IMG/VR virus record: IMGVR_UViG_3300033076_000313
Location: 1-62,369 of that record
Direction: 5' to 3' (one strand)
Length of the DNA: 62,369 bases
DNA from: a virus
Lineage: Duplodnaviria > Caudoviricetes
Shown here: piece by piece, positions 3,240-62,292 of the stretch
How the letters are laid out: each line of letters begins with the position of its first letter
How positions within the stretch are numbered: position 1 is the first letter of the stretch
Notes under the pieces: generated by a model
The model's database searches: none
The model's input: the letters and a program-made list of their open reading frames with translations, nothing else
What the model was told of the DNA's origin: nothing
Position numbers and translations under genes: made by a program

Positions 3240-3662
3240 ATGGAAACCATCCAGTTTGAAGGGCGCAAGATCGCCATGAAACAGGACAGGACGGGGTATG
3301 TGCTTACCCTGTCCGTGCACCCCGACGAGATACCCGAGATGCTCGTGCGTGATTTCGTTGGGGCGCGTTACCAAGTCGTCATGGTTCGACTGAGTGACGA
3401 CGGTAAAGCCATGGTTCGTGAGCAAGAGTACCCGTCAAAAGACCTTGTTCGTTTGGCTGGTGTCATGTGCCGCGATCCCCTGTTCCACGCCTTCTTGGCA
3501 GAGACAGGCCAGATATTTGAAGAGAGCGAAGCAACAGCAATCGAGTGGTTGCGTGAAGAGATTGGCATCCAGTCTCGCGCTGAGCTAAAGACAAACCAAA
3601 CCGCAGCCTCGCGCTTCCGGTTTATCCATCAGGAGTTCCAAGCATGGAAAGCAACACGTTGA
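3240..3662 (+). CDS. hypothetical protein
   Basis: Contiguous ORF; IGIQSRAELKTNQTAA motif resembles conserved phage hypothetical proteins. Confidence 0.75.
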   Translation: METIQFEGRKIAMKQDRTGYVLTLSVHPDEIPEMLVRDFVGARYQVVMVRLSDDGKAMVREQEYPSKDLVRLAGVMCRDPLFHAFLAETGQIFEESEATAIEWLREEIGIQSRAELKTNQTAASRFRFIHQEFQAWKATR

Positions 3663-8000: not shown

Positions 8001-11000
8001 TCAGCAAACGACGGAACAGGCCAACCAACTTGGAGAATGCAGAGACATTCTTTTCGACCTCAACAGTCTTCAGATAGTCTTGGAAGATCATCTCTGTCAG
8101 GCCGTATGAGATCAGTTCGCTTACGTTCTGCAATTGTGGATTCGTGCGTCCAGATGCAGCCCATCTTGCATGGTTTGTCAAGAATGGATGCTTCTTACCG
8201 TTCTTGATGTCATGATTGACTTGACGGCGAATCTTCACCAGCAACGGAGTCAGCTCTTTGTAAAGCTGAGATTGATCGGCATATCCGCTTCTAACCAGAG
8301 TGCCCAACATCCAAGTCTGCGGCTGTGTCGCAGCATGCAACATCTCGTGCATGATGGTCTTGTAGTTTGAGCCAGAGTTCAGATGGCCATCTTTGGTTTT
8401 TGCATTCGCGCCATTGATCTCGACGTGAACGTGATATTTCCCACCTTTGATGCTTGCTGTGGCTGTGCCACCGGCATTGCGAGTTGTACGTGGCAAGACC
8501 TTGAAGGTCATTGGAATGCCAGAGTCTGTCATCGCTTTGATGCGAGCAGCAATCTTTTCAGCAATGTACTTGGCGACGCTGTTTGGTGCGTTATCAATCA
8601 ACCATTGGTTGGCTTGATTGATGTCCATGCCGGTGATTTCTTTTTCAACCTGCACGTCGTTCTTTGCGATGTCAAAAGCCTTTTGCTCTTCAGGCTCTTC
8701 AGCTGGCTTGTTGAACAGGTCTTCAGGTTCGGTAGGCTTCTCTTGCAGCGTCTTGAATACGTCTTCAAGAGGTAGCTGAGTCTTGTTGCCAAACATGTCT
8801 TGTTCAGCATTTGCCTGAGCAGCAGCTGTATCTGCCAGCTTGCCAAGCAACTCGCCCATGCGTTTACCAGAACGGCCGTTTTCAGCAAACATATCCAGCA
8901 CGGCGCGCGTGTTGGGGTCCATGCCGATGTCGCCTTGGTTGACGTAGTCTTTCAGCTTGATGCCTTGACGACGAGCGTTCACAGCCAGCTCGGCAGCGTC
9001 AATGATGTTCTGACGAATGTCGTACTGACCAGCGCCATCAAGCGCAGCAGCCTTCGATGCAGAACGTGCCAGAGCTTGCAAGATCAACTTGGCTTCTGGG
9101 TCTGCTGCCTGTGCGTACAGGTCGATCAAAGATGGGCTGCCATAAGCACGGTGGAAGATCGCATTGTTCAGGCGGTCAACGGCTTTGCTGTTTGGCATGC
9201 CGTTCTTGTCCATCAACTCGCCTTGCTCTTCTTTTGGCATGGCGCGCACAAACTGGATCAAAGAGTTCTTGTCGAACGATCCGTCGTCTTTGAAGTTGAT
9301 GCCATTGATGTCGAAACGGTTGCTGTCGTTGGCAGCCGTCTCAACAGGGTTCATGCGCAAGCCACCAGATACATTGGAAACATCGCCAATGTCAGGCGTC
9401 ACAAACGATTTAGGCATGACGCGGACAAGAACAGGATTCTCCATGTTCAAGATCGCACCTTGGTCAATGCCATGCTGTGTATCCATCTCCAAAGCATTGC
9501 GATAACCACCAGCTGTGTTTGCGCCGTAAGCTGCCTGTAAGCCAGCAATACGCCCGTTACCTGCCACGGCACGAATGCCCTGTTGGTTCATGTCGGCATA
9601 CGACTTGTTTGTCAGGCCATCTGCGCTATGCGATGTCATCAAGTCGCCAGCATCAACCACGGCATACTGAACTGGAATCTTACGGCCGTCTGACGCGGTG
9701 ACGACTTCCGTCTTGCCCATCTGGTTTTCTGGGATGCGGACATCGCTCATCACAACTGGAGCGCCATTGGCGAAATCGCTCGATGTCTTCAGGCGGTCAT
9801 AGTCAGGCTTGGCGCTGATGCCTTGCATTTGCTGGATGGATGCGGGCGTCGCACGATCACGGTTCTGCAAACGAGCAAACACGTCATGCGCGTCAGCAGA
9901 CAGACCCTTCTCATAGTCTTTGAGAGCGTCTTCAAATTCTTTGGCAACCTTCACTGGCTCGCCAGCAGGAGTCTCTTCTTTTGGAGGTGTACCCTCTTGT
10001 CCAACTGGCTCAGCAGGCGCAACTGGAGGAGCGGCTGGTGGCGTTACAGCTGGGACGTTTGCTTGTCCAGTAGGAGTCACTGGACCGGGCAGGATTTGTT
10101 CTGGAGCGCGACCTTGCACAGCGCCAACAGTAGCACCCATAGCACCAGCACCCAATGCAGCCAATGCGCCAGCACGGCCAACGCCTTCTGTAAGACTTTG
10201 GTCAGGATTGAACTGACGAGCAGCGACGTTCTGAGCGAACTGGCCGCCACCTTCTTCCACCATTTCACCGGGGATTTCTTTAAGTGCGCCAAGGCCAGCA
10301 CCAATAATGCGACCTGCATTGCCACGTTCACCGGCCAGTGCGCGTTCCATGGCTTGAGCGCCGGGCAGCTTGTTGGCCAACACAGAGATGGCAGCACCAG
10401 ACAAACCGGCCATGCGAGCGGCATTGATAGCTTGATCTGCGGCCTCTTCAGGTTTGGCACCCTTGGCCACCAAGTCGTCATAGATTTGCTGGTATGCACC
10501 AACGCCAACGTCTGCACCCTGTTGAACAGCTGCCGTACCAATAGAAGCAGCAGCGCCACGCGAGATGGCAGATTCTGACGCTTTCTTTACAGCCTCTCCT
10601 AAAGCACGCTCAGCGGCTTCTTTTGCGGCCACGGTGGTAGCAGACTTGGCAGCAATTTGCATTGCCTTCACTTCGGCAGCGGCCTCTGGTCCAACACCGG
10701 GGATCAGTGCAGCAAGGATAGATGGCAATGAGGCAGGAACCTGCTCAGCCAAGAACGAACCCAACTGGGCAGGATCAGTCAAAGACTCTGCAAGCTGGGT
10801 CTTGAGCGCGCCCCACTGGCCGCCTTCTTTCTCAGCCTGTTGTACCTTGGCTTGGGTTGCAGCTTCGCGTTGCTTCAGGCCGGCAGACTTGTGCTCCTGC
10901 GCCCACTCTTGCATGCCCTTGCCAATTCCTTGCAGGCCGGTGGTGCCAAAGTCTTGGTTCTTGATTGCGCCTGTGGCCAAACCAACCAGCTGACCGGGAA

Positions 11001-11196
11001 ACTGCAAGAGCTGACCAGTGCCAGACACCAAGCCTGCGCCGATGTCAGATACGTGCTCACCAAGAGAGATGTCTTTCTTGGTGAACTTCTCAAAGTTTGC
11101 TTGAGCGTATGCAAGAACCTCTTTTTCCGATGCGCCTTCTGGAGCTGTTACTTCAAATGTTTGACCATCTGGTGACGTTACTTCATAGGTCGGCAT
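5080..11196 (-). CDS. large polyvalent internal virion/ejection protein (ddrB-like ParB domain, HExxH metallopeptidase-like motif, LPD38-like C-terminus)
   Basis: 2038 aa; last gene of the virion module. YAVVDAGDLMTSH...GNGRIAGLQAAY (ParB-like), TIMHEMLHAATQ (HExxH), C-terminal NYDFFQGRPL..SPIAIDHIIRG resembling LPD38. Confidence 0.7.
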   Translation of the reverse strand: MPTYEVTSPDGQTFEVTAPEGASEKEVLAYAQANFEKFTKKDISLGEHVSDIGAGLVSGTGQLLQFPGQLVGLATGAIKNQDFGTTGLQGIGKGMQEWAQEHKSAGLKQREAATQAKVQQAEKEGGQWGALKTQLAESLTDPAQLGSFLAEQVPASLPSILAALIPGVGPEAAAEVKAMQIAAKSATTVAAKEAAERALGEAVKKASESAISRGAAASIGTAAVQQGADVGVGAYQQIYDDLVAKGAKPEEAADQAINAARMAGLSGAAISVLANKLPGAQAMERALAGERGNAGRIIGAGLGALKEIPGEMVEEGGGQFAQNVAARQFNPDQSLTEGVGRAGALAALGAGAMGATVGAVQGRAPEQILPGPVTPTGQANVPAVTPPAAPPVAPAEPVGQEGTPPKEETPAGEPVKVAKEFEDALKDYEKGLSADAHDVFARLQNRDRATPASIQQMQGISAKPDYDRLKTSSDFANGAPVVMSDVRIPENQMGKTEVVTASDGRKIPVQYAVVDAGDLMTSHSADGLTNKSYADMNQQGIRAVAGNGRIAGLQAAYGANTAGGYRNALEMDTQHGIDQGAILNMENPVLVRVMPKSFVTPDIGDVSNVSGGLRMNPVETAANDSNRFDINGINFKDDGSFDKNSLIQFVRAMPKEEQGELMDKNGMPNSKAVDRLNNAIFHRAYGSPSLIDLYAQAADPEAKLILQALARSASKAAALDGAGQYDIRQNIIDAAELAVNARRQGIKLKDYVNQGDIGMDPNTRAVLDMFAENGRSGKRMGELLGKLADTAAAQANAEQDMFGNKTQLPLEDVFKTLQEKPTEPEDLFNKPAEEPEEQKAFDIAKNDVQVEKEITGMDINQANQWLIDNAPNSVAKYIAEKIAARIKAMTDSGIPMTFKVLPRTTRNAGGTATASIKGGKYHVHVEINGANAKTKDGHLNSGSNYKTIMHEMLHAATQPQTWMLGTLVRSGYADQSQLYKELTPLLVKIRRQVNHDIKNGKKHPFLTNHARWAASGRTNPQLQNVSELISYGLTEMIFQDYLKTVEVEKNVSAFSKLVGLFRRLLKIDTQYQSALEQLAEVTERGLEVPVADIKSEAKKHGYTVGKKTLREESVKMPFGKKEQEPTPTGAGVQSMDILSQIGRGNQEADPNHLQNLNKLWNNARDNPKATAEAARQATTHWLDWLETKVFSSDAALNNRIMRGLKEMGKTNAERLGLLLNTSLSQTNHKDALAALFLQKGGLRWNEKLYKWEGVDKEDNIIKLSKQLDELASKNGLTKQKAELVAHTAFEAKRLRSILRFNSELEQEIADIRADADSKRDSDPVASNALYEKANRLQDQKKYVSDEQKAMIGPAMELFKIHPELNDLVDTWNKIRAEAVDTLVKTGVWSKEDAEEMLANADYVPFYREDQLEKNKGPKEYIRGLQIQAREHRLKGSDRPVNDIFDNQVRWLQYSIGRAVSNRSALAMADTAVEVGAAVRVSDKDRGGAPNVVRVWRDGKEEFFSMEDPMFMDAFKGLEAVVIPSWKWASSIANMLRQSVVMYPMFSVAQVPQDSFAAMFSSGLKPQFALRIPVLAVKEFVQTLRGASKTHDILKNVGAVGVRDFTAAMVRMDTEIYAGLKAPPGVLGKIKHSLNHIAMSADNAVRQAVYEASIAQGLSEAEAMEKSFEVFNIRRKGSSKSLALAGQMIPFFSAYLAAQNVAYKTITGRGISPTERQEAFKTLAATTASVMVLSLLYAMMNGDDDDYLKKPATQRDRLLMVPGTGGFSIPLRADLFTMPKIITEHMYLLMTDKGYEDGRKFRDSMNAALGSALLSPTVVPQAIKPLVEVGINYDFFQGRPLIGTYQQKLETERQFTDSTSEMAKILGSTGMASPIAIDHIIRGMFGSVGGLVLYATNPMLHSDPNSPRPSLSERDAIAALPGMSGFMTKSYESALKKDFYTLKEEVDKAANTMNDLKTRSPYEIEGFLAKEENLSRLGLQKSVNAIGEKLSNIRKAVTQISNSNMPADEKREQLKMLREAENEMLKGVDVKALRQLGKI

Positions 11197-24488: not shown

Positions 24489-27400
24489 TTACTGGAAGCT
24501 GTATACAGCCACGTCACACGTTTGAGCCCAACCGCCAGTATTATCTATGACGATTCGGTTAAACGCTGCGCTAAACGCACCGCGCAGTTCACCAAACCAG
24601 TACGTGCCGCCGTTCATGCCACGATAGAAAACGGTCAAATCGTTTGAACTTGAGCCGCCGACATAAATATCCATTTCTATCGTCGATTTCAACGGGCTTG
24701 TGGTGCTGTATGGAATCACTGGGCTTTGCGAAAACATGCCCGAGAAAATAGCTGTCGCAAACGAATTAGCTTGGTAAACGCTGTTTGACGGCACAGTACC
24801 TGTCGTGACGCTGTAATAGTAGCTGCCGCCACCCCGTGCATCGCTAAAAGTTGCGTTCGCAGAATCTTTGAATGTGACGCGCACATAGTTTGTCGATGTA
24901 GTTGCAGTCGAGTTGGTGTAGTTGCTGATAACGACTCTGAAATGCTTGTACGCAGTACCGTCAAGGGTGACCGTTGTCGAGTAAGTGTTAGCCGCAGTGA
25001 CGGCAATTTTTGTTGCGTTATGTACTGTTGCAGTTGCAGCATTTCCAGTAATACCAATACCCCAAGTACCAGAAGCACCGGAGCCGGTAAGGGAGGGGCT
25101 GTACGAGGTGTAGTTGCTTGCGTTTAAAACAATGTTGTTGTTTACATACGCATTTGATGGTGTAACAGCAAAAGCCGCTCCTGTCGCTGTAACGTTTCCG
25201 TTTGGATGAATCCCAATAGTATCAGCGCCGCCGATACCGGACGAACCTTGATAATAGCTAATACCGTAGCTAGTAGCATTGCCAAAATACCAAATTGGGT
25301 TACGGACGCCAGCGGACCAAGTTGCGTTGGCAAATCCGTTATTACCGCCCGACGTGACAAGCCCAGAAAAAGTTCCTGTTGTTGCGCTTAATGCGCCTGT
25401 AATGTTTACCCCAGTTGTAGACGAGGCTTGGTTCGAGCTTGCCGCCCAAACAAGTGTTCCACTTGGCGCAGTCGTTGAATACGAAGGCGCGTTATATAAC
25501 GTGGAACCGCCGGTGCCACCATACGTAATATCCACCAAGGCCCAAACAGTCGTCTTTACATATATGCTGACGTTATTGCTCGCGTCTTTATACACAAGCA
25601 AATCTTGGTTGCCGATGTTGCCACCTACATACCCTTGAACCGGAATGGAGCCTCCACGAGAGAATACTGATAGATTGATAGACGCCGCACCTTGGCTACC
25701 ACCTGCTGGTCCGTCATGACCGCCGATGTTGCCGCGAATAAACACGCTACCGTTGTTTGTGCTAATGAACGCAACTAGGTAATAGCGTGTGGTGGAATCA
25801 GAGCTTTGGTCAACGTACAGCTCATAACGCGGCGCTGCGTAACTACCGTAGTTAGCCGCATTAAGCACCTGATACCCGTTTTGTGTGATTGCACCTGTGG
25901 CAGAAAGCGTGCCTGTAACTGCTGCACCGTTTTCATCCGCCGTAAGGCTGGTCACCCAAGAAACGCCAGTGCCTGCGGCAGCCGTGCGCCACTCATGACG
26001 GCCATTACCAAGATGCTGGATGTACGCAAACTTTTTCTTGGCTGGATCGTCTTCGACCCACGAACCGCTAAACAATGCGTTGGTGGTGAAGTTAAGGCCG
26101 TTGCCGTCCGAACCTAGGCGTGCTTGCGCTGTGACGCCGGATGTCACAAGCGCCCACTTTAACCATGTGGATGCTGTCAGTGTTGAGGATGCTTCTGGGT
26201 TACAAGCGCCAAACACTTGCAAGTTGCGCGTATCACCAAACAACTTCATCATTGAGCGACCATTTACATAGTCATAGACCTCAAAGTTTTTGTAGGTGCC
26301 TGCGGTCCCGCCCCAATTGAGGCCAAGTAACGCGAAGCTGCCTCCGTCAGCATCTGCTGCGGTAAAGTAAATACGTGCGTTTGTACTTTGAAAAGTCCCA
26401 GCAATGGTCGTGCCAGTCAACGTTCCAGTCAACGTACCGCCAGTCAACGGCAAATACGTTCCGCTAAGAGATGGGATGTCGGACGCTTGAATCGCGGACA
26501 TCGTTACGTTGGTGCCGTCACCACGCAAATACTGCCCTGCTGTTGTCGCGCCAGCAAGGGCGTTCATCGCTGCTTGTGCCGAAGCCTGCCCTGTACCGCC
26601 GTTAGCAAGGGGTAACGTGCCACTCACATGCGTAGCCAAACCGATCTTGCCCCATGAAGGAGCCGAACTGACACCTCCAGAGATGAGTGCATTGCCTACC
26701 GCGACGTCGGCCAGTTTGGCCAACGAAGTGGTTGTGTTCGCATACAGCAGATCACCCACGGCGTATGACGCAAACCCTGTGCCGCCGTAAGTCGGGCCAA
26801 TGGTGCTTGCGTTCCAAGTTCCAGCAGCCAGCGTACCAACGCCAGTGATGCCGGTATAACTGCCAGACAACCGTGCTGTGCCGAGCGTACCGCTAGAAAT
26901 GTTGGAAGCGTTGGTTGTGTCTGTGGTGGCCGATGCGGCCAAGCCTGTGATGTCAGACGCGGCGGGTTGTTGCCATACGGGAGCAGCAGAGCCTGTGCCC
27001 GTACCTGTTTGTCCCAAGAATTTCTTGGTTGTGGTTGTGTTGCCGGACAGAACAGTCAGTGTGTTTGTCGATGGCGAATACAGCATGTCGCCAACTGCGT
27101 ATGCGTTCTGTCCTGTACCACCGTTGGTTGCTGGTAAAGAGCCAGACACTGCGCCTGATTGGTCAAGGGCTACACCATTCCACTCAACGTTTGTGCCGGA
27201 GCCATTGACAACCAAGGACTTGTATGCGGAACCAACAGGAAGCTTTGACCATGTATTGGTAGCGGAGCCGTACAGCAAATCACCTGTGGCCACCGTAGCC
27301 GTACCTGTACCGCCCAGCGTGGCTGGAACGGTGGTCAACGACAGGGTATTTCCGCTCAACTGCAAAGGCGAGTTAACCACGTATTGAGGGACAGAACTGA

Positions 27401-28682
27401 ACTGGCTAAACGTGATGTTTGTGGTGCCAAAAGTAATCACGCCTACAGTCGTGCAGGTGTACGACTCGAACGCCGCAGTGTCCCCCTCCTGAACGAAGAA
27501 ATACGCTCCTTCGTCGAGTGCGTTAGGATTGTTCACTCCATACGTGTTTGCATCCGAAGCACGTGTCAGCACCCAGTTTGTAGAGCCTGAACCGATGTTG
27601 GTGACGACATACACGCCGTTTTGTGTTTGGTTGGTTTGGTCCATGACCAGCACGCGGTCATTTACGGCCATAGTTATGCCGTCCAAAACCAAAGCGGTCT
27701 GCGTCCCGGCGTTTGTCAGTGTGGCTCCAACACCTGCGGTTCCGTTGTTGTACGTGGCGTTAAGGTTGCCAATTGCTTCCACGCGCACTGCGGGGTGCAC
27801 GGTCAAGCCAGCGGATGCTGCGTTATCCACATACGCTTTAGTCACAAACTCATTTGTCGCGGGAGACGTCATCGACGAAGTGGTTGTAACAGGCGCAGTA
27901 AAAGTGCCACCCTGCGCGTTCACGTCGCCTGTCACGTTGATGCTGGCCGTTGTGGTCAGTTCTTTTGTGAGCTTGTCAAAGCGTGCGGCTTCGTCAGCAG
28001 GCGTTACACCGCCAGTGAAGAAAATCAAGTCGTCAGTACCACTACCGACAAACATCTCACCGCCGTCACCATACAGGTACATCGAGCCCGCAGTGAAGAT
28101 CGGCCAAGTCAAGGACGAGAAGTTTGAGCTGTTGATGCCCATGTCCATGAAGTTGGCTGAATCAGAAACCGTGTTGTCACGGTAGACGATCATGTCAGCG
28201 GAGGCTTCTGCACCATCGTTCAAGTTGCGTGCATAAAGCTGCGCAAACGAATCCACATTGCCGTACATCTCGCCAAGCGCGGCGGAGAATGTTGTGTACC
28301 CAGTGACGCCATTACCAACAACCGTGATCGGGCCGCCGTCAATCAAGACGTTGCCAGACGCTTCTTCGTAGATAGCTTTCTTGGCTGGGTATGTGATAAA
28401 CAGGTCTTTTGGACCGGAAGCAAAAGAAATCTTGTTTGTGGTAGCCGCGCTGTTGTCAAGGACCGTGTCGCGCACCAGCGTCCCGCCAGCCGCCGTCGTG
28501 TACTGGCCGATACCAACTTCCCAATCACCTGTGGCTTGGTCGTAGCAACAGTAATAGGTGAAGTTGTTTGCACCGATCACAGAGAATGAGTCGTATCCAG
28601 ACGAAGAGCCGCCAAGAACAAAATCAGCCGTGCCTGTTGTAGCTGTGGTTTCTTTTACGCGGTCTTTTAAAACAATAGCCAT
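24489..28682 (-). CDS. long tail fibre protein (1397 aa)
   Basis: LKDRVKETTATTGT N-terminus, TKAYVD..DRVLVMDQTNQTQNGVYVV..LTRASDA domain, three GGTG..GD(L/M)LY repeats, VLNAxNY repeats. Confidence 0.85.
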   Translation of the reverse strand: MAIVLKDRVKETTATTGTADFVLGGSSSGYDSFSVIGANNFTYYCCYDQATGDWEVGIGQYTTAAGGTLVRDTVLDNSAATTNKISFASGPKDLFITYPAKKAIYEEASGNVLIDGGPITVVGNGVTGYTTFSAALGEMYGNVDSFAQLYARNLNDGAEASADMIVYRDNTVSDSANFMDMGINSSNFSSLTWPIFTAGSMYLYGDGGEMFVGSGTDDLIFFTGGVTPADEAARFDKLTKELTTTASINVTGDVNAQGGTFTAPVTTTSSMTSPATNEFVTKAYVDNAASAGLTVHPAVRVEAIGNLNATYNNGTAGVGATLTNAGTQTALVLDGITMAVNDRVLVMDQTNQTQNGVYVVTNIGSGSTNWVLTRASDANTYGVNNPNALDEGAYFFVQEGDTAAFESYTCTTVGVITFGTTNITFSQFSSVPQYVVNSPLQLSGNTLSLTTVPATLGGTGTATVATGDLLYGSATNTWSKLPVGSAYKSLVVNGSGTNVEWNGVALDQSGAVSGSLPATNGGTGQNAYAVGDMLYSPSTNTLTVLSGNTTTTKKFLGQTGTGTGSAAPVWQQPAASDITGLAASATTDTTNASNISSGTLGTARLSGSYTGITGVGTLAAGTWNASTIGPTYGGTGFASYAVGDLLYANTTTSLAKLADVAVGNALISGGVSSAPSWGKIGLATHVSGTLPLANGGTGQASAQAAMNALAGATTAGQYLRGDGTNVTMSAIQASDIPSLSGTYLPLTGGTLTGTLTGTTIAGTFQSTNARIYFTAADADGGSFALLGLNWGGTAGTYKNFEVYDYVNGRSMMKLFGDTRNLQVFGACNPEASSTLTASTWLKWALVTSGVTAQARLGSDGNGLNFTTNALFSGSWVEDDPAKKKFAYIQHLGNGRHEWRTAAAGTGVSWVTSLTADENGAAVTGTLSATGAITQNGYQVLNAANYGSYAAPRYELYVDQSSDSTTRYYLVAFISTNNGSVFIRGNIGGHDGPAGGSQGAASINLSVFSRGGSIPVQGYVGGNIGNQDLLVYKDASNNVSIYVKTTVWALVDITYGGTGGSTLYNAPSYSTTAPSGTLVWAASSNQASSTTGVNITGALSATTGTFSGLVTSGGNNGFANATWSAGVRNPIWYFGNATSYGISYYQGSSGIGGADTIGIHPNGNVTATGAAFAVTPSNAYVNNNIVLNASNYTSYSPSLTGSGASGTWGIGITGNAATATVHNATKIAVTAANTYSTTVTLDGTAYKHFRVVISNYTNSTATTSTNYVRVTFKDSANATFSDARGGGSYYYSVTTGTVPSNSVYQANSFATAIFSGMFSQSPVIPYSTTSPLKSTIEMDIYVGGSSSNDLTVFYRGMNGGTYWFGELRGAFSAAFNRIVIDNTGGWAQTCDVAVYSFQ

Positions 28683-56577: not shown

Positions 56578-57096
56578 TTACTCCTTTGATGTGATGCCGT
56601 GGGCGGCTTCGATGGCGGCGCGTGCAAACATACGCAGGTCTTCTGCATCGCACAGTTGCCCATACTCTTGTCGGTGAAGATCAGCGAGTTTGTCTAGGTC
56701 TTCATCCGTCAGCGGCTTGCGCTGTTGTTGAGTGGTGTAGAGAGGCTGCACCTTTTCTTCTCCAAGCCATTCCACAGCCTCTGCAACCAGCTTCTTATCA
56801 TCAGACAGGCTCCATTGCTTCCAAGTTTTTGATGACAACCAGCGCCAAGCCACAGGTTCCTGCTCTGGCTGTGCCACCTGCGCCTCAAGTTCAGCAATGC
56901 GCATCGCTTGGTTGTATGTCTTTTCTTGCAGGTCTTGGCATATTGCGTCTAGGTCGGGTTGCTCTGGCTGTGCCAAGGCTTCTTTGATAGCGGTGATGGC
57001 TTTACGAATAGCAGAACCAGGCAAGTTGTAACCTTCATTCTGTGTTTTTTCCAACGCCTCAAGCGCCAGCTTCAATGCTTCTGTTTTCTTATCCAT
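56578..57096 (-). CDS. mosaic array paralogue F
   Basis: MDKKTEALKLALEALE...AITAIKEALAQPEQ...AAHGITSKE. Confidence 0.75.
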   Translation of the reverse strand: MDKKTEALKLALEALEKTQNEGYNLPGSAIRKAITAIKEALAQPEQPDLDAICQDLQEKTYNQAMRIAELEAQVAQPEQEPVAWRWLSSKTWKQWSLSDDKKLVAEAVEWLGEEKVQPLYTTQQQRKPLTDEDLDKLADLHRQEYGQLCDAEDLRMFARAAIEAAHGITSKE

Positions 57097-57436
57097 TGTT
57101 CTTCTCCTTGAGTTTGGCTTCAACTTTGCGCATTGCTAGTTCAGGTACAGTTTCCCAACAGTTGGCACGTTCCTCATTCGTCAGTCCAACCCATGTGCGC
57201 TGTGGTGGGGTGGTGTTTTCTTGCGCTATAACAAGTCGCTTCTCTCCAAATCCCCAAGGCTCTTTGCGCCAATCTTTTTCCACAGGCTCCTGCTCTGGCT
57301 CTTTGGGCTGTGCCAAGGCTTCTTCGATGGCGGTGATGGCTTCACGAATAGCAGAACCAGGCAAGTTGTAACCTTCATTCTGTGTTTTTTCCAACGCCTC
57401 AAGCGCCAGCTTCAATGCTTCTGTTTTCTTATCCAT
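57089..57436 (-). CDS. mosaic array paralogue E
   Basis: MDKKTEALKLALEALE...WVGLTNEE...EAKLKEKNNG. Confidence 0.75.
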   Translation of the reverse strand: MDKKTEALKLALEALEKTQNEGYNLPGSAIREAITAIEEALAQPKEPEQEPVEKDWRKEPWGFGEKRLVIAQENTTPPQRTWVGLTNEERANCWETVPELAMRKVEAKLKEKNNG

Positions 57437-57827
57437 TGTTCTTCTCCTTGAGTTTGGCTTCGATGGCTTCAATTACTTTGCGAAAAGCTTGATTTCGGTA
57501 GACCATGTTTGTTTGTATATCCTTGACCTCCTCAGGCGTCAGTCCAACCCATGTCATGTCACTGCGTGACGGGCGCTGTGGTATTTCGTCTTGACCCCAT
57601 ATTCCACAACTTATGCAACGCATTTGACCAACTTTCATTGTGCCAGTCCTAAACCATTCATGTTTGTGTGAAACTTTTACAGGCTCCTGTTCTGGCTGTG
57701 CCAAGGCTTCTTTGATAGCGGTGATGGCGTTCTCATGCAAAAACGCTGGATAGCCTTCAAAGCCATCTTTCCAAAGTCCTTCCAACGCCTCAAGCGCCAG
57801 CTTCAGCGCCTCTGTTTTCTTATCCAT
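57429..57827 (-). CDS. mosaic array paralogue D
   Basis: MDKKTEALKLALEALE...HKHEW..CISC..WVGLTPEE...EAKLKEKNNG. Confidence 0.75.
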   Translation of the reverse strand: MDKKTEALKLALEALEGLWKDGFEGYPAFLHENAITAIKEALAQPEQEPVKVSHKHEWFRTGTMKVGQMRCISCGIWGQDEIPQRPSRSDMTWVGLTPEEVKDIQTNMVYRNQAFRKVIEAIEAKLKEKNNG

Positions 57828-58335
57828 TGTTCTTCTCCTTGAGTTTGGCTTCGGCCCATCGCACCGCCTTTCGCATCGTCTTGCTGTCGCAAGGACAGTA
57901 AGGATTGTTGACGCTGAACGTCTGGTCACGGCCCTTCTCAATCTCCTCCTCCGTCAGTCCCACCCACGGCTTGCGCTTATGTGACTCCGTCACGGGTGGG
58001 GGGGCGGTGAGCAGGCCAACAATCTGCTCTGCCAACGCTTTTCGTGCTGCGTTGTGCGTATATCGGTAGTCGTAGTTGATGTGAACGTAAACGAATTCAC
58101 CACCAAGGCGAATGTCAACGCCACCGAGAAAGTCGTAACCAACCTCAATGCCTTCTGCGACCTTTTCAAATTGCACAGGTGGCAACGCCATAGGCTCCTG
58201 CTCTGGCTGTGCCAAGGCATTTAAACCTTGTTCAATTACTTCTGTGCGCTTTTCTTGTAGCTCTGGACTGTGAAATGTTCCAACAGCCAATAGCTCAAGC
58301 GCCAGCTTCAGCGCCTCTGTTTTCTTGTCAGTCAT
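57820..58335 (-). CDS. mosaic array paralogue C
   Basis: MTDKKTEALKLALELL...ALAQPEQEP...WVGLTEEE...EAKLKEKNNG. Confidence 0.75.
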   Translation of the reverse strand: MTDKKTEALKLALELLAVGTFHSPELQEKRTEVIEQGLNALAQPEQEPMALPPVQFEKVAEGIEVGYDFLGGVDIRLGGEFVYVHINYDYRYTHNAARKALAEQIVGLLTAPPPVTESHKRKPWVGLTEEEIEKGRDQTFSVNNPYCPCDSKTMRKAVRWAEAKLKEKNNG

Positions 58336-58633
58336 CTTTTTCCCCACATTCGCAATGTTCCATCCCACAATCAATGCAAACGCTGTCATCACAGATTGGC
58401 TCCTGCGGCTGTGACGGTTGAGCCAAAGGACACTCTAGGTCAAATCCACCGCAATCATTGCAATGAGGTTGCTGTGCTGGATGCTCAGCACCCGGGGATT
58501 CCTCGGCCAGTGCTTCGCGGATGGCGGTGATGGCGTTCTCATGCAAAACCGCTGGATAGCCTTCAAAACCATCTTTCCAAAGTCCTTCCAACGCCTCAAG
58601 CGCCAGCTTCAAAGCCTCTGTTTGTTTTGTCAT
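58328..58633 (-). CDS. mosaic array paralogue B (Cys-rich tail)
   Basis: MTKQTEALKLALEALE...CNDC..CIDC..CEC. Confidence 0.75.
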   Translation of the reverse strand: MTKQTEALKLALEALEGLWKDGFEGYPAVLHENAITAIREALAEESPGAEHPAQQPHCNDCGGFDLECPLAQPSQPQEPICDDSVCIDCGMEHCECGEKDD

Positions 58634-58636
58634 GTC

Positions 58637-59218
58637 TTACTCCTTGATGCCGTGGGCGGCTTGCCATGCTTTCCAAAGGTCTGCCGTCATAGGACTGAGA
58701 ACGACCCACTCACCTGTGTCCGAATTGCACGTCTGGGCGCAGTCATACCCTTGTGCACCAGCCCACTTGATGAACTCTTTGAACTGCGGCTTGCGCTGTT
58801 GTTGGTCAGTAGATGATTGATCCATCATTACTGTTCGTGCCAATGCTTCGCATGTTGGACAGGGTTGTGGTTTCTCATACAAAGCAATCGCGCCTTCGTC
58901 TGTTTCGGCGCAATCTGTCCAGCCAAAAGGCTCAGGTTTGAAATAACCGAATGGCTCCTGCTTATGTGTCTCCGTCACGGCTGACTGTGCCACTTGAGCC
59001 TCAAGCTCCTCAATGCGCTGCGCTTGCTTCTGAATCGTCAATGTCATCTCGTTGATTGCTTCGTCGGCGTAATCTGGGTGGAACTGGTTGACTGTCTTTG
59101 GCTGTGCCAAGGCTTCTTTGATAGCGGTGATGGCTTCACGTTGAAACTCTGAATTTGTTTCCAACACATACATTTCCAACGCCTCAAGCGCCAGCTTCAA
59201 TGCTTCACGTTCTTTCAT
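58637..59218 (-). CDS. mosaic array paralogue A
   Basis: MKEREALKLALEALE...AITAIKEALAQP...AAHGIKE. Confidence 0.75.
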   Translation of the reverse strand: MKEREALKLALEALEMYVLETNSEFQREAITAIKEALAQPKTVNQFHPDYADEAINEMTLTIQKQAQRIEELEAQVAQSAVTETHKQEPFGYFKPEPFGWTDCAETDEGAIALYEKPQPCPTCEALARTVMMDQSSTDQQQRKPQFKEFIKWAGAQGYDCAQTCNSDTGEWVVLSPMTADLWKAWQAAHGIKE

Positions 59219-59876: not shown

Positions 59877-60076
59877 CCTGCCACCCATACGGCCTTTCCG
59901 CCTGTTGGTTCAAAGTCTTCAAACTTCAAGCGAACATACTGTTGACCTTCCACTCCGGCAGATTGGACATAGCCTTGGATGCCAAAGTCTTTAAGCTCTG
60001 TCACCACTACCATGCAGCCGCCAAACATTTCTTTCAACGGGTTCACTTGTACGATGTCATGCACTTCGATATTCAT
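59873..60076 (-). CDS. small SH3-like hypothetical protein
   Basis: DIVQVNP..FGGCMVVVTE..GIQGYV..TGGKAVW. Confidence 0.7.
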   Translation of the reverse strand: MNIEVHDIVQVNPLKEMFGGCMVVVTELKDFGIQGYVQSAGVEGQQYVRLKFEDFEPTGGKAVWVAG

Positions 60077-60468
60077 GCTGCCACCTTGACCATGCGCACA
60101 TCGGTGATGCCGCCAAAAATAATATCAATCTGGCTCATGCCGGAAAGGTCTTTGTCAAAGATTTCGAGCTTGAAGTTGTTTTCATCAAACCACTTGAGCC
60201 ACTGGTACAGCTGCTCTTCCGCGCGCTCTCCACGACCAAGCACAGCAACACAAGGATGCTTGTGGTACGCATCTTCTGGCGTCCACACATCGCCGTTTTT
60301 GTCGGTGCGGTTCCACTCTTTGTCGTGCCACTCATAATCTGGATACTTGCCATCGGCCAAAATGCCGACGCACTCACGGCCAAATCCGCATTCGCCCTCA
60401 AGCGTAAGCACACATTGGTTCTTGTGCGCCCACATAATCATCCAGTTGGTTTTCTCTTCACGTGTCAT
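60073..60468 (-). CDS. hypothetical protein
   Basis: GGAG RBS; LEGECGFGRECVGI..AYHKHPCVAVLG. Confidence 0.75.
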   Translation of the reverse strand: MTREEKTNWMIMWAHKNQCVLTLEGECGFGRECVGILADGKYPDYEWHDKEWNRTDKNGDVWTPEDAYHKHPCVAVLGRGERAEEQLYQWLKWFDENNFKLEIFDKDLSGMSQIDIIFGGITDVRMVKVAA

Positions 60469-60559
60469 GTTTATCTCCGGCTGGTTGGAGAACGGATGAT
60501 ACAGCAAGTTGCACATATCTACACATTAGTGCAATGAATTATTTCTATGTGCAAGGAAG

Positions 60560-61173
60560 TGTCGATAGGAAAAACAAATCGCAAAAACGAAAAGCCAAAG
60601 GTTCCCCAAGGGTGAATAGCCAAGGTATTCATCCCTGCCCATAGGGCACATACGTGGTGTCCTACTAGCAAACCCATAAGGCAGCGATTCGTCGATAGGA
60701 GGCTTGTCTTTCACCGCTCGTCCTCTTATCTTGCCCAGTCCCTCGCTGACAGGCTGGACGGCTGTTATCTGGGGGTGTGGCCAGTGCCGGTGTTTCCTTC
60801 CGCGCCACCCATGCAGGTGCAGTGCTATCGTGCGGAGTACGGCTACTGTAGAAGAGAGATGCACTTGATGATGGTGGCTGGGCTGGATACCAGCTCGGTA
60901 GAGGCAATGCCCATCTCTACCGCTTGAGGGCTTACGATCCCATTACGCATTTGTCACCTGCTGCTATCTGTGTCGGTCAAAGCGGCTGCATACCGCGCCA
61001 AACATTTCATTTTTCAGAACCAGCAAGAAGTGTGTCTATCCACACCGCACCATCATCAAGTACACAAACAAAAAAGCCGCTTACTACTGCCCTCGGTAGG
61101 AACCCTAGAGTAAAAACCAAGGGCGAGAGCATGAGTAAACGGCTTCAGTCTTTGTCGCTTCCTACGGCAACGG
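60560..61173 (-). ncRNA. candidate structured non-coding RNA region (three sub-domains)
   Basis: No credible ORF; many complementary segments including a 14-bp perfect long-range stem and loop-loop pairings; sigma70 promoter immediately upstream. Confidence 0.55.
61070..61145 (-). terminator. terminator-like closing stem with U-tract
   Basis: AAGCCGTTTACT/AGTAAGCGGCTT stem followed by TTTTGTTT on the minus strand. Confidence 0.55.
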
Positions 61174-61178
61174 TTTGG

Positions 61179-61206
61179 ATTATACACACATTTCAATGTG
61201 TTGCAA
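61179..61206 (-). promoter_or_regulatory. sigma70-type promoter
   Basis: TTGCAA-N16-TATAAT; predicted +1 near 61172, where the first hairpin begins. Confidence 0.65.
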
Positions 61207-61274
61207 CACGTTTCATACCGTACTTTTACTCACCCTATCCGGCTAGGGTGACAAAAGCGACACGGTGTCGTATT

Positions 61275-61362
61275 TGGCGGATGGTGTTGGGATCGAACCA
61301 ACGCGCCCCTTGCGGGACGACAGGTTAGCAACCTGCTGCCTTAACCTCTCGGCCAACCATCC
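61275..61362 (-). tRNA. tRNA-Ser(GCT)
   Basis: GGATGGT acceptor stem, anticodon loop TTGCTAA, long variable arm, GGTTCGATCCC, encoded CCA. Confidence 0.92.
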
Positions 61363-61363
61363 T

Positions 61364-61437
61364 TGGCATCCCGACAGGGAATCGAACCCCAGATAACGGA
61401 CTTGGAAACCGTTGTGTTACCACTACACCATCGAGAA
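61364..61437 (-). tRNA. tRNA-Trp(CCA), atypical
   Basis: D arm GTGT-AGTGGTA-ACAC, loop TTCCAAG, TTCGATT T loop, G73, CCA; several mismatches and wobbles. Confidence 0.75.
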
Positions 61438-61442
61438 ACAAC

Positions 61443-61530
61443 TGGCGGAAGAGGTGAGATTCGAACTCACGGAGCCTTTCGACTCGACAGTTTTCAAGAC
61501 TGCTGCATTAAACCGCTCTGCCACTCTTCC
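61443..61530 (-). tRNA. tRNA-Ser(TGA)
   Basis: GGAAGAG acceptor, loop CTTGAAA, long variable arm, GTTCGAATC, CCA. Confidence 0.93.
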
Positions 61531-61610
61531 AAATTTGGCCGGTGACGATTATCCGGCTCGTATGTTGATGCGCTTCCACCCCAATGGGGATGCTCGCCTA
61601 CGACGAATCT

Positions 61611-61686
61611 TGGTGCCGACTCTCAGATTCGAACTGAGGCTCTCCCGCTTACAAGGCGGGTGCAGTGACCACTTTGCTAAGTCGGC
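61611..61686 (-). tRNA. tRNA-Thr(TGT)
   Basis: GCCGACT/AGTCGGC acceptor, CCCGC-CTTGTAA-GCGGG, GTTCGAATC, ACCA. Confidence 0.9.
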
Positions 61687-62065
61687 GTTTATATTCTTTG
61701 TTGTGCGCACTTTTTGCCGCCACGCACAGTGAGCATTTGCAATACCTGTACTCGGTTAATGTTCCATGTTTTGGAACCCTGACAGCTTTGCGATGCTCAT
61801 GGTTTTTGACTTTGTTTTCATGACCAGTCAAGATTTGAAGGTTGTCCAAACTGTCGTTTGTTTTGTCTTCGTCTTTGTGATCAACCTCCTCCTCGTCCGT
61901 CAAGTACCTTCCAATCTTCACTGCCATCAAGTACCTAGCGTAACTTGTGACAGTCCTGTCTTTGTTGCTGTTGTAAAGAACAACATACTTCCTGCCGTCT
62001 TTGCTTTCCTGCAAATAACCACGGCGCCAGTCAGTAGAGTAAGGTGCGGACAATTCGTATCTCAT
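61649..62065 (-). CDS. free-standing HNH homing endonuclease
   Basis: YARYLM..EEVDHKDEDKTNDSLDNLQILT..EN (HNH_3-type) and a C-terminal HG..Y..CKC..C motif; located in the tRNA cluster. Confidence 0.85.
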   Translation of the reverse strand: MRYELSAPYSTDWRRGYLQESKDGRKYVVLYNSNKDRTVTSYARYLMAVKIGRYLTDEEEVDHKDEDKTNDSLDNLQILTGHENKVKNHEHRKAVRVPKHGTLTEYRYCKCSLCVAAKSAHNKEYKRRLSKVVTAPAL

Positions 62066-62083
62066 GCACGAATTATACACGAC

Positions 62084-62110
62084 TTGCTCTACCAACTGAG
62101 CTACAAGGGC
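62084..62110 (-). pseudogene. orphan 5' half of a tRNA
   Basis: GCCCTTG-TA-GCTC-AGTTGGTA-GAGC-A directly after the tRNA-Asn CCA; no matching CAAGGGC 3' acceptor strand downstream. Confidence 0.75.
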
Positions 62111-62185
62111 TGGCTGCCAAGGCTGGGATCGAACCAGCGACCAACAGATTAACAGTCTGCTGCACTACCGCTGTGCTACTTGGCA
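62111..62185 (-). tRNA. tRNA-Asn(GTT)
   Basis: TGCCAAG acceptor, GCAGA-CTGTTAA-TCTGT, GGTTCGATCC, GCCA. Confidence 0.93.
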
Positions 62186-62205
62186 AAAACTTTGGGGAGG
62201 GGTCT

Positions 62206-62292
62206 TGGTGGGGATGGCTGGATTCGAACCAACTCAACGTAGAAGTAACAGATTTACAGTCTGCCGTGCCTCACCAACTGCACCGCATCCCC
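62206..62292 (-). tRNA. tRNA-Tyr(GTA)
   Basis: GGGGATG acceptor, GCAGA-CTGTAAA-TCTGT, long variable arm, GGTTCGAATCC, ACCA. Confidence 0.9.

What the first reader, a model, noticed from the sequence alone, without database searches (positions are those of the whole stretch)
60560..60845. Dense, doubly pseudoknotted non-coding domain upstream of the replication operon
Seen: nested complementary segments TCCGC/GCGGA (60799-803/60832-36); CGGC/GCCG enclosing CTGG/CCAG, whose loop (60773-77) can pair with 60806-10; GTCCAG/CTGGGC (60754-59/60733-38), whose loop CAGCGA pairs with TCGCTG at 60682-87; GATA-GAGG/CCTC-TATC (60722-30/60694-702); and hairpins at 60610-35 and 60636-48. A 10-bp direct repeat GTCGATAGGA occurs at 60561 and 60691. 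There is no ORF with an RBS or phage-like codon use. Established: large structured phage ncRNAs (GOLLD, ROOL) often sit beside tRNA genes. Inference: an undescribed large ncRNA or ribozyme, or a primer RNA/origin for a genome that shows a helicase and Toprim protein but no polymerase or classical initiator in this window.
Basis: partly seen in the sequence, partly recalled or inferred. Interest (0 to 1): 0.75.

Follow-up and report, generated by a model that had tools for sequence, protein, structure and literature searches.

The report
New large structured phage RNA family
The flagged stretch is the conserved core of a roughly 600-base folded RNA gene, one of a large family in uncultured water-borne phages that matches no catalogued RNA family and whose job is still unknown.

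Summary
Window 60584-61206, minus strand, is a single-copy RNA gene.

- **5' domain:** the loop of a stem-loop pairs with a 7-nt bulge in a terminator-like hairpin. This pairing is perfect in 117 of 117 distinct relatives, using 28 different 7-mers.
- **Core:** nine helices plus a pseudoknot. In 32 cores, 81.8% of cells are paired against 33-48% in slid controls, and 49 of 58 pairs show compensatory changes.
- **Family size:** profiles built here hit 152 (5' domain) and 106 (core) of the 376 loci fetched.
- **No known relative:** no Rfam 15 model matches.
- **Not coding:** ORF 60526-60864 is not conserved.

The other pseudoknot and one hairpin are not. tRNA adjacency is not a family trait.

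Function is inferred only. The core ends in a Shine-Dalgarno-like run and a start-like codon and sits at the head of early and replication genes. I favour a cis-acting early-operon leader (0.4) over a trans-acting ornate RNA (0.35). Primer, origin and ribozyme readings remain untested.

The parts
61179..61206 (-). Promoter P1: TTGCAA, 16 nt, TATAAT (10 of 12 matches). It ends 2-8 nt before the first conserved RNA base.
   Evidence: scan; sequence. A comparable site at the same distance is found in 54 of 117 relatives, against 8 of 117 shuffled controls.
61066..61176 (-). 5' domain ('head'): SL1 plus a long hairpin with a G+C-rich base and a U-run.
   Evidence: The A5 profile hits 61176-61069 at E = 1.8e-27. 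MFE z = -4.81, with 0 of 200 shuffles as good. In 49 sequences 92.6% of cells are paired, against 34-50% in slid controls.
61154..61171 (-). SL1: stem GUUGC/GCGAC with the 8-nt loop CGUAGGAA.
   Evidence: 98% of cells are paired in 49 sequences.
61159..61165 (-). 5' strand of the head pseudoknot: GUAGGAA, in the SL1 loop.
   Evidence: It is perfectly complementary to 61096-61102. The same arrangement holds in 117 of 117 distinct modules, with 28 distinct 7-mers.
61076..61143 (-). Long hairpin (GCCGUUUAC...GUAAGCGGC) with internal loops and a 3'-side bulge.
61096..61102 (-). 3' strand of the head pseudoknot: bulge UUCCUAC.
   Evidence: In the 7-bp helix, 5 of 7 pairs show changes on both sides.
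61066..61075 (-). U-run (UUUUUUGUUU) directly after the hairpin. Together they resemble an intrinsic terminator.
   Evidence: All 117 relatives have at least 5 T in the 9 nt after the hairpin, and 99 of them have at least 7.
60864..61060 (-). Optional inserted domain, closed by the 13-bp stem CUUGAUGAUGGUG/CACCAUCAUCAAG.
   Evidence: In most relatives the core starts about 20 nt after the hairpin. L113 carries an insert with like ends. A metagenome contig joins 60842 to 61070 (table 5).
60584..60846 (-). Core ('class A body'): helices H1-H9 plus pseudoknot PK1. This is the finding itself.
   Evidence: The A4 profile hits 60844-60591 at E = 3.4e-61.
60799..60836 (-). H1 (60832-36 / 60799-803) enclosing H2 (60816-19 / 60806-09, loop UGCAUG).
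   Evidence: H1 has 3 of 5 pairs compensatory, H2 has 3 of 4.
60759..60789 (-). H3 (60786-89 / 60759-62) enclosing H4 (60781-84 / 60769-72). The H4 loop carries the near-invariant ACACCCC.
   Evidence: 4 of 4 pairs compensatory in both H3 and H4.
60682..60758 (-). H5 (60754-58 / 60734-38), PK1 (60743-48 with 60682-87) and H6 (60722-30 / 60694-702).
   Evidence: H5 has 5 of 5, PK1 6 of 6 and H6 9 of 9 pairs compensatory.
60610..60681 (-). H7 (60680-81 / 60673-74), H8 (60661-70 / 60636-45) and H9 (60626-34 / 60610-18).
   Evidence: H7 has 2 of 2 and H8 8 of 9 pairs compensatory. H9 varies in length.
60596..60607 (-). Shine-Dalgarno-like GGGG (60604-07) and start-like UUG (60596-98). Relatives have GG(G/A)G, then 5-7 nt, then AUG.
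   Evidence: a start-like codon is present in 65 of 70 modules. It opens an ORF of at least 50 codons in 14 of them and a mini-ORF in 51.
60538..60565 (-). Promoter-like site P2 (TCGACA, 16 nt, AATAAT) in front of ORF 60073-60516.
   Evidence: A TTGACA directly after the core appears in about 12 relatives, read by eye from the rows printed.
60526..60864 (-). 112-codon ORF that overlaps the core. It is not a gene.
   Evidence: only the window has an open frame across the core. The 31 relatives show 4-10 frame changes each, and there is no codon periodicity (0.308 / 0.288 / 0.304). No Pfam hit.

Best explanation
SHOWN: Window 60584-61206 (minus strand) is a single-copy gene for a large, two-domain structured RNA. 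It belongs to a family with no curated relative.

SHOWN from sequence and covariation:
- A sigma-70-type promoter starts transcription just before a 5' stem-loop.
- The loop of that stem-loop pairs with a bulge in the following long hairpin. The hairpin has a G+C-rich base and a U-run, so it looks like an intrinsic terminator braced by a pseudoknot.
- About 20 nt further on in most relatives lies a roughly 260-nt core of nine helices plus one pseudoknot. In the window a 197-nt optional domain comes first.
- The core has invariant unpaired stretches: ACGAUAG, GGAAACAC, ACACCCC, GGUG, ACAAG and GGGCAGGG.
- The core ends in CACCC-UUGGGG-N5-UUG, which is a Shine-Dalgarno-like run followed by a start-like codon.

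INFERRED: It acts as RNA at the head of the early region, mainly in cis.
- The 5' domain caps the 5' end and sets what share of polymerases read on, acting as an attenuator.
- The folded core sits on the first ribosome-loading site of the read-through transcript. In this way it gates expression of whatever early or replication gene follows, in the manner of a riboswitch or a protein-binding leader.

I put 'real structured RNA family, minus strand' at about 0.97. I put the cis-leader mechanism at about 0.4.
For: The family is real.
- A core motif finds 16 viral and 28 metagenome contigs, giving 31 distinct cores.
- Profiles built here hit 152 (head) and 106 (core) of the 376 loci fetched, never twice in one locus.

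The structure is supported by covariation.
- A3: 25 cores, 90.3% paired against 34-46% slid, 36 of 54 pairs compensatory.
- A4: 32 more diverse cores, 81.8% against 33-48% slid, 49 of 58 pairs compensatory.
- A5: 49 heads, 92.6% against 34-50% slid.
- The head loop-bulge pairing is perfect in 117 of 117 modules.
- G-U pairs are kept on this strand, for example UG in 25 of 25 sequences. That fixes the strand.

Evidence for the cis reading.
- A start-like codon lies 4-12 nt after the GG(G/A)G run in 65 of 70 modules. It opens a real-looking ORF in 14, fused to several different proteins.
- In the printed rows of two relatives (L279, L326) it is the only AUG I see ahead of the conserved protein motif, read by eye.
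- Downstream genes are co-oriented in most loci and are early or replication genes. Of 118 modules, 23 loci carry an FEQFWKAYP-type protein, 13 a ParB-like protein, 8 an SF2-type helicase and 16 an HNH protein.
- In the window the ParB-like gene, helicase and primase follow 5-9 kb downstream.
- A promoter lies at a fixed distance upstream, and the U-run is present in 117 of 117 modules.
Against: - No transcript ends, levels or strand could be measured. The runs that were laid are contigs only.
- Downstream genes are not one family. The commonest neighbour family is found in 24 of 118 loci.
- In 51 of 70 modules the start-like codon opens only a 2-43-codon ORF. About 12 of these run straight into a new TTGACA promoter, by eye from the rows.
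- In the window the next gene has its own promoter-like site.
- In some relatives (L190, L266, L337 and class B member L185) the RNA is followed by a terminator-like hairpin, read by eye from the sequence. Only minus-strand ORFs are listed next. A pure leader would have nothing to regulate there.
- The same 5' domain precedes at least five unrelated-looking bodies. That fits a trans-acting modular RNA better than a leader.
- No covarying partner that would sequester the Shine-Dalgarno-like run was found.
- The core alone gives an MFE z-score of +1.01.
Confidence: 0.4

Rival explanations
1. A trans-acting 'ornate' RNA. The transcript is a self-contained RNA particle that works on its own during early infection, in the way GOLLD and ROOL are thought to. 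It could be a ribozyme, an RNA-only assembly, a decoy, or a sponge for a protein or small molecule. On this reading the 5' domain is a constant handle and the body is an exchangeable working part. The ribosome-site-like 3' end would be structural or secondary.
For: - It has its own promoter and occurs once per locus.
- Stand-alone copies are followed by a terminator-like hairpin (read by eye), with only minus-strand ORFs listed next.
- Separate promoters for the next gene are common (and rows).
- The head is constant while at least five different bodies of 250-450 nt follow it, and an optional inserted domain occurs, as in large ribozymes and in GOLLD.
- There is no conserved neighbouring protein: at most 24 of 118 loci share a neighbour family.
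- Unpaired stretches are invariant.
- The size and complexity are otherwise seen in trans-acting RNAs. That comparison is recalled, not tested.
Against: - A start-like codon at a fixed distance from a Shine-Dalgarno-like run is kept in 65 of 70 modules and serves as a gene start in 14.
- There is a terminator-like hairpin between the promoter and the body.
- Most copies are co-oriented with early genes and lie directly upstream of them.
- No partner, ligand or activity is known.
Confidence: 0.35
2. A replication primer or origin RNA. The transcript, or transcription through this region, would prime or activate DNA synthesis for a phage that encodes a helicase and a primase but no polymerase. 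This would resemble the ColE1 RNA II or T4 R-loop origins. The loop-bulge pair would act as a specificity or control element.
For: - No polymerase was found among 29 ORFs scanned, and the ParB-like gene, helicase and Toprim primase lie downstream.
- In 13 of 118 loci the ParB-like gene follows the element, and in 23 a replisome-organiser-like gene does. 'Replisome-organiser-like' is my reading of its N-terminal motif, from recall.
- There is a strong promoter followed by a structured RNA.
Against: - The element also lies next to capsid and terminase/portal genes (L152, L221).
- No AT-rich unwinding element, iterons or skew switch were seen.
- A primer does not need a 3' ribosome-site-like motif.
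- Nothing was tested directly.
Confidence: 0.08
3. A self-processing RNA. The core would be a ribozyme or an intron-like element that cleaves or splices the read-through transcript, for example to free the 5' domain or to create the 5' end of the early mRNA.
For: - The fold is multi-helix and pseudoknotted, with invariant unpaired nucleotides.
- An HNH endonuclease gene lies directly after the variant bodies in 16 of 118 loci.
Against: - No Rfam ribozyme or intron model matches, even at E up to 10 or E up to 1.
- By my reading from memory, the helix order does not fit the topology of group I introns, HDV-like ribozymes, glmS or RNase P.
- There are no flanking exons.
Confidence: 0.05
4. The stretch encodes the 112-residue protein of ORF 60526-60864, and the base pairing is incidental.
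For: In the window an open frame with a GTG start spans the core.
Against: - The frame is interrupted in the relatives. There are 4-10 frame changes against each of 31 aligned sequences.
- Variation is equal at the three codon positions.
- There is no Pfam hit.
- ORFs over the RNA in relatives start and end at different places.
- Compensatory base-pair changes are seen throughout.
Confidence: 0.01

Closest known systems
GOLLD and ROOL RNAs (Rfam families; cryo-EM paper PMC12286853, of which I saw only the search listing and abstract)
   Same: - Large, ornate and phage-borne.
- Modular, with variable parts.
- Found in lake and other environmental metagenomes.
- No protein partner is known and the function is unknown.
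- Sometimes found beside tRNA genes, as in the window.
   Different: - No match to any Rfam model, even at E up to 10 or up to 1.
- tRNAs flank the element in only 3 of 23 loci (plus the window).
- This family has its own promoter, a terminator-like 5' domain and a ribosome-site-like 3' end, and it sits at the head of early genes.
Riboswitch-type or protein-binding mRNA leaders with a terminator or a sequestered ribosome site
   Same: - It lies directly after a promoter.
- It contains a terminator-like hairpin.
- It ends in a Shine-Dalgarno-like run plus a start codon.
- It has conserved unpaired nucleotides, as a binding pocket would.
   Different: - The terminator precedes the large fold instead of following it.
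- No single regulated gene family is attached to it.
- Many copies are followed by a mini-ORF and a fresh promoter.
- At about 260 nt plus a 110-nt head, it is larger than known aptamers. That size comparison is recalled.
phi29 packaging RNA (pRNA), recalled rather than tested
   Same: - A phage RNA made from a strong early promoter.
- A hairpin loop and a bulge loop are complementary, and they covary between relatives while the sequences drift.
   Different: - The Rfam scans listed no pRNA hit.
- Here the pair is 7 bp and can form within one molecule.
- The hosting phages are unrelated to phi29.
- There is no evidence of multimers or of a role in packaging.
Phage RNA-based early control elements: HK022 put RNAs, the lambda PR'-tR' short transcript, the P4 CI RNA and the P1/P7 c4 RNA (all recalled)
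   Same: - Promoter-proximal structured RNA at the start of early or late operons.
- A short terminated transcript.
- In P1/P7 and P4, complementary segments within one transcript covary and set specificity.
   Different: - No sequence or model match was listed in the scans. I did not check which of these RNAs have an Rfam model.
- Those elements are 70-200 nt and have no 260-nt pseudoknotted body.
- No antiterminator or immunity function has been shown here.

Membership tests
Any Rfam 15 family (4227 models, which should include GOLLD, ROOL, RNase P, tmRNA, group I/II introns, riboswitches, pRNA and C4; family names recalled) | A covariance-model match at the gathering score, or at least a recurrent weak match. 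| tested here: not met
   - The whole window at gathering score gives only 6 tRNAs.
- 60400-61300 at E up to 10 gives 4 unrelated weak hits, E 1.9-6.3.
- 13 relatives' loci at E up to 10 give nothing on the element.
- 12 loci with other bodies at E up to 1 give nothing on the element.
GOLLD / ROOL | Frequent adjacency to tRNA genes. This feature is recalled. | tested here: not met
   tRNAs are present in 2 of 22 relatives' loci scanned, plus the window. One more case, L297, appears.
Intrinsic (Rho-independent) terminator, for the hairpin of the 5' domain | A G+C-rich stem directly followed by a U-run. | tested here: met
   - GUAAGCGGC followed by UUUUUUGUUU at 61084-61066.
- At least 5 T in the next 9 nt in 117 of 117 relatives.
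- The simple scan did not list it, because its loop limit is 8 nt.
- Termination itself cannot be tested here.
Cis-regulatory leader / riboswitch | Lies in the 5' UTR, with the ribosome site or terminator of the regulated gene forming part of the element. | tested here: inconclusive
   A Shine-Dalgarno-like run plus start-like codon is present in 65 of 70 modules, but it opens a long ORF in only 14. The other 51 have mini-ORFs.
Cis-regulatory leader / riboswitch | Consistent association with one gene family or pathway. | tested here: not met
   The commonest downstream family is found in 24 of 118 loci. The next are found in 23, 16 and 13 loci.
tmRNA | A tRNA-like acceptor domain plus a tag reading frame. 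| tested here: not met
   ARAGORN finds no tmRNA in the window or in 26 relatives' loci. The mini-ORF peptides are not conserved.
Protein-coding gene (ORF 60526-60864) | A conserved open frame, in-frame indels and third-position variation. | tested here: not met
   frames broken, 4-10 frame changes per relative, no periodicity; no Pfam hit.
Structured RNA in general | Base pairs kept through compensatory changes, above slid and shuffled controls. | tested here: met
   In each, 0 of 500 shuffles reach the observed percentage paired or the observed covariation score.

The most novel reading that the evidence does not exclude
This is the founding example of a new class of giant modular phage RNAs. 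A constant, pseudoknot-braced 5' head is joined to interchangeable bodies of 250-450 nt. On this reading the RNA acts in trans as a self-contained RNA machine early in infection. It could be a ribozyme, an RNA-only assembly built through the loop-bulge contact (as in pRNA, or the GOLLD/ROOL cages), or a sponge for a host signal or protein. It would not be a mere leader.
Probability: 0.3. Interest if true: 0.9.

Novelty: categorically new. Interest (0 to 1): 0.8.

Why it matters
Complex-folded bacterial and phage RNAs longer than about 350 nt are rare. Each known class (RNase P, tmRNA, self-splicing introns, OLE, GOLLD, ROOL, guide-RNA scaffolds) has turned out to be biochemically remarkable, or is still a long-standing puzzle.

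This family stands out in several ways:
- It is abundant: more than 150 loci were fetched here, from viral, lake, wastewater and sediment assemblies.
- Its secondary structure is unusually well supported.
- It has a modular build: one head with several bodies.
- It sits at a defined place, at the head of early and replication genes.
- In a public phage record (MW202484.1) it is annotated as a 'hypothetical protein'.

The family gives RNA biologists a tractable new object. Compensatory mutants, reporter fusions at the conserved start codon, termination assays and cryo-EM are all straightforward. It also gives phage annotators a model that would remove a recurrent false gene call.

If the RNA gates early or replication genes, it would be a new kind of phage developmental switch. 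If it acts in trans, it would be a new ornate RNA.

Tried and rejected
- **Similarity to cultured phages.** blastn of 60400-61300 against 50,697 phage records found no match. A relative's module hit one uncultured record only.
- **Homologues of the neighbouring 147-residue protein.** Five loci were found, and none carries the RNA.
- **TerL relatives.** In 5 whole records, blastn found only the hairpin base. By eye, G001 and G002 carry the head with a different body. The head profile hit G001 (L095) but listed no hit for G002 (L096).
- **First MAFFT alignment.** The alignment of four loci failed because the bodies differ.
- **Loose motif.** The 16-base motif gave mostly chance hits, which I filtered with nhmmer.
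- **GC skew as a sign of an origin.** It is monotonic and uninformative.
- **RNA evidence.**
  - The four runs laid (two metatranscriptomes, and two 'RNA-Seq' runs that are probably DNA) are contigs only.
  - They hold relatives' copies of 60570-60854 and 61026-61196.
  - They show neither transcription, nor ends, nor strand.
  - The lack of cover over the insert and the flanks is no finding.
- **Partner for the 3' tail.** The mutual-information scan gave one correlated column, which is explained by one clade. By eye, candidate pairings with CCGUAC, the SL1 loop and the H4 loop were inconsistent.
- **Pseudoknot GGUG (60712-15) with CACC (60611-14), proposed by RNAalifold.** It competes with H9, and all partners are invariant or covary together. 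I left it open.
- **Hypervariability of the head 7-mer as a sign of specificity selection.** Another helix of the head (4 of 4 pairs) covaries as freely, so I make no such claim.
- **Resemblance to RNase P, SRP, group I, HDV or cobalamin motifs.** I considered these from memory only, and none fits the helix order or the Rfam scans.
- **Prior description in print.**
  - Three searches found no description.
  - Fremin et al. 2023 (PMC10690425; I saw the outline and passages) list 8,495 unnamed candidates from IMG/VR, with a mean length of 67 nt. These may include fragments of this RNA.
  - The preprint 10.64898/2026.09.15.751765 (passages seen) does not mention phages.
Full report
**What the window is**

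The window is a whole IMG/VR virus record of 62,369 bp, rated 99% complete. Its large terminase is about 50% identical to those of Pelagibacter phage HTVC027P, phage DSL-LC04 and some cyanophages. Portal, capsid, tail and lysis functions fill most of the genome.

Around the finding, everything lies on the minus strand. In order:
- six tRNA genes at 62292-61275, with an HNH endonuclease ORF among them;
- a 758-nt gap without a credible gene (60517-61274);
- small ORFs, then a tandem family of paralogues (59218-56578);
- a ParB-like gene (55294-54455), an SF2 helicase (53820-52327) and a Toprim primase (52097-51267).

No polymerase appeared among the 29 ORFs scanned.

**Checking the observation**

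- The single sequence alone does not show this for the core. Its minimum free energy is no better than that of shuffles (z = +1.01).
- The whole gap gives z = -3.5 on the minus strand and -1.2 on the plus strand.
- The 5' part alone gives z = -4.81.

The decisive evidence is comparative.

**Finding relatives**

- Similarity searches with the DNA found nothing in cultured phages.
- They also found nothing next to homologues of the neighbouring protein.
- In whole genomes of terminase relatives, blastn picked up only a 20-35-nt piece at 61063-61097.
- Reading those loci showed a promoter, a long hairpin ending in AAGCGGCUUUUUU, and then a few hundred non-coding bases.
- One locus (L097) was visibly homologous to 60570-60850, with compensatory changes.
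- A motif taken from that pair found 16 viral contigs, 28 metagenome contigs and no species-representative genome. That gave 31 distinct cores.
- Profiles built from my alignments hit 152 (5' domain) and 106 (core) of the 376 loci held, and never twice in one locus. In the window they hit once each, at 61176-61069 and 60844-60591.

**The core (60846-60584)**

Alignments of 25 and of 32 more diverse cores support these helices:
- H1 enclosing H2;
- H3 enclosing H4;
- H5, whose loop forms pseudoknot PK1 with 60682-87 across hairpin H6;
- H7, H8 and H9.

The counts are as follows.

| Alignment | Sequences | Cells paired | Slid controls | Pairs with changes on both sides |
|---|---|---|---|---|
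| A3 | 25 | 90.3% | 34-46% | 36 of 54 |
| A4 | 32 | 81.8% | 33-48% | 49 of 58 |

- In both alignments, 0 of 500 shuffles reach the observed values.
- PK1 has 6 of 6 compensatory pairs.
- G-U pairs conserved on this strand fix the strand of the RNA.
  - The pairing of the H4 loop with 60806-10 clashes with H2, which covaries.
  - The small hairpin at 60636-48 is replaced by H8.
- Unpaired ACGAUAG, GGAAACAC, ACACCCC, GGUG, ACAAG and GGGCAGGG are nearly invariant. Part of that invariance is forced by the motifs I searched with.

**Not a gene**

- The 112-codon ORF over the core is open only in the window.
- Each of the 31 aligned relatives differs from it by 4-10 frame changes.
- Variation is flat over codon positions.
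- ORFs called over the RNA in relatives have different limits.
- The one public phage record that holds the element, MW202484.1, annotates a 'hypothetical protein' across it.

**The 5' domain (61176-61066)**

- Every class-A core, and many other loci, are preceded by the same 105-130-nt element directly after a promoter (TTGCAA-16-TATAAT in the window).
- A comparable promoter site at the same distance is found in 54 of 117 relatives, against 8 of 117 shuffles.
- The element is a 5-bp stem-loop (SL1) followed by a long hairpin. The hairpin has a G+C-rich base and is followed by a U-run. All 117 relatives have at least 5 T in the next 9 nt.
- Seven of the eight SL1 loop bases (GUAGGAA) are complementary to a bulge (UUCCUAC) about 20 nt from the 3' end of the hairpin.
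- In 117 of 117 distinct modules, a perfect match of at least 7 nt joins the SL1 region and the 3' half of the hairpin. In 116 it sits at this same place. In the remaining one (L360) the script's best match lay elsewhere, but the pair at the usual place is also there by eye.
- The pairing uses 28 different 7-mers.
- On a 49-sequence alignment, 92.6% of cells pair against 34-50% slid.
- So the 'terminator' is part of a pseudoknotted fold.

**Variation on the theme**

- In the window, a 197-nt hairpin domain closed by a 13-bp stem separates head and core.
- Most relatives lack it: their core starts about 20 nt after the hairpin.
- L113 has an insert with like ends.
- A metagenome contig joins 60842 to 61070.

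Of the 114 distinct heads with at least 150 nt of downstream sequence:

| What follows the head | Modules |
|---|---|
| Full class-A core | 33 |
| Partial class-A core | 33 |
| Other long non-coding bodies | 48 |

- The 48 other bodies fall into clusters of 12, 8, 8, 7 and smaller.
- None of these bodies matches Rfam either.
- The family is therefore a constant head joined to several bodies.

**The 3' end and its context**

- The core ends CACCC-UUGG(G/A)G-A-NN-CUAUG.
- Of 70 distinct modules, 65 have a start-like codon 4-12 nt after the G-run (mostly AUG, with some GUG, UUG and AUU).
- In 14 it opens an ORF of at least 50 codons, fused to several different proteins.
- In 51 it opens an ORF of 2-43 codons.
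- By eye from the rows, about a dozen of these end in the TGA of a TTGACA box that directly follows.
- The window has UUG (60598-96), a 17-codon ORF and a promoter-like site P2.
- Of 118 modules, downstream neighbour families include the tandem paralogue family seen in the window (24 loci), an FEQFWKAYP-type protein (23), an HNH protein (16) and a ParB-like protein (13), with the helicase in 8.
- Some copies lie beside capsid or terminase genes.
- A few are followed by a terminator-like hairpin (by eye), with only minus-strand ORFs listed next.
- tRNAs flank the element in 3 of 23 loci.

**What it is and how it may work**

Shown: this is a real, minus-strand, non-coding, multi-domain structured RNA family with its own promoter. 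It is single-copy, widespread in uncultured phages, and without a curated relative.

Two MAG contigs labelled Betaproteobacteria hold the head. That is only a hint at the host.

Inferred: function. Three features suggest a leader that meters read-through and gates the first ribosome-loading site of the early region. I give this reading 0.4. The features are:
- the position directly after a strong promoter;
- the terminator-like head;
- the ribosome-site-like tail, which serves as a true gene start in several lineages.

Four features point the other way, to an RNA that acts on its own, as GOLLD and ROOL are assumed to. I give that reading 0.35. The features are:
- the stand-alone copies;
- the promoters that follow the element;
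- the exchangeable bodies and the optional domain;
- the absence of one regulated gene family.

The primer/origin reading (0.08) and the ribozyme reading (0.05) have no positive support, but they could not be tested here. Transcription itself could not be shown, because the only runs available were contigs.

**Novelty**

- No Rfam 15 model matches at any threshold tried.
- Three full-text searches found no description.
- A 2023 screen of IMG/VR lists thousands of short unnamed candidates that could overlap parts of this RNA.
- I rate this a new RNA class. Whether its mechanism is new remains open.

Noticed in passing
window 61275-62292 (minus strand): An array of six tRNA genes (Ser-GCU, Trp, Ser-UGA, Thr, Asn, Tyr). 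A 148-residue HNH endonuclease ORF (61649-62095) lies between tRNA-Thr and tRNA-Asn. L245 has a similar array of seven tRNAs upstream of its module.
   Followed up: partly
window 56578-59218 (minus strand): Five or six tandem paralogous genes. They share an N-terminal MDKKTEALKLALEALE motif and a C-terminal WVGLT..EAKLKEKNNG motif. The same family is the commonest neighbour of the RNA module in relatives (24 of 118 loci). It has no Pfam or PHROG match.
   Followed up: partly
L095 3105-3525, L096 3150-3500, L113/L185/L245, and the clusters: The same 5' head is followed by other long non-coding bodies of 300-450 nt. These are classes B and C, plus clusters of 12, 8, 8 and 7 modules. None matches Rfam. 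They are probably further structured RNA classes.
   Followed up: partly
window 60864-61060 (minus strand): An optional 197-nt inserted hairpin domain, closed by a perfect 13-bp stem. Most relatives lack it. L113 has a 125-nt version with homologous ends.
   Followed up: partly
window 60561-60570 and 60691-60700: The 10-nt direct repeat GTCGATAGGA is real: 2 hits against 0.05 expected. One copy lies in the 3' strand of H6. The other overlaps the -35 box of the downstream promoter-like site. It is partly kept in the closest relatives, and its meaning is unknown.
   Followed up: partly
L376 (MW202484.1) 2921-3287: A public record of an uncultured podovirus annotates a 'hypothetical protein' CDS (2947-3306) across the RNA module. 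This is probably a false gene call. That phage also carries a cro-like regulator upstream.
   Followed up: partly
window 61231-61270 (minus strand): Two small hairpins lie directly after tRNA-Ser and before promoter P1. One was listed as terminator-like (61270-61258). It is probably the end of the tRNA transcription unit.
   Followed up: no
window 5080-11196 and 24489-28682 (minus strand): Two giant ORFs of 2038 and 1397 residues. They have only PHROG matches of unknown function.
   Followed up: no
L374 and L375 (genome contigs): The only two species-representative genome contigs that hold the head motif are both metagenome-assembled Betaproteobacteria, one of them labelled Dechloromonas. This hints at the host group. 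I did not check whether the contigs are prophages or mis-binned phage DNA.
   Followed up: no
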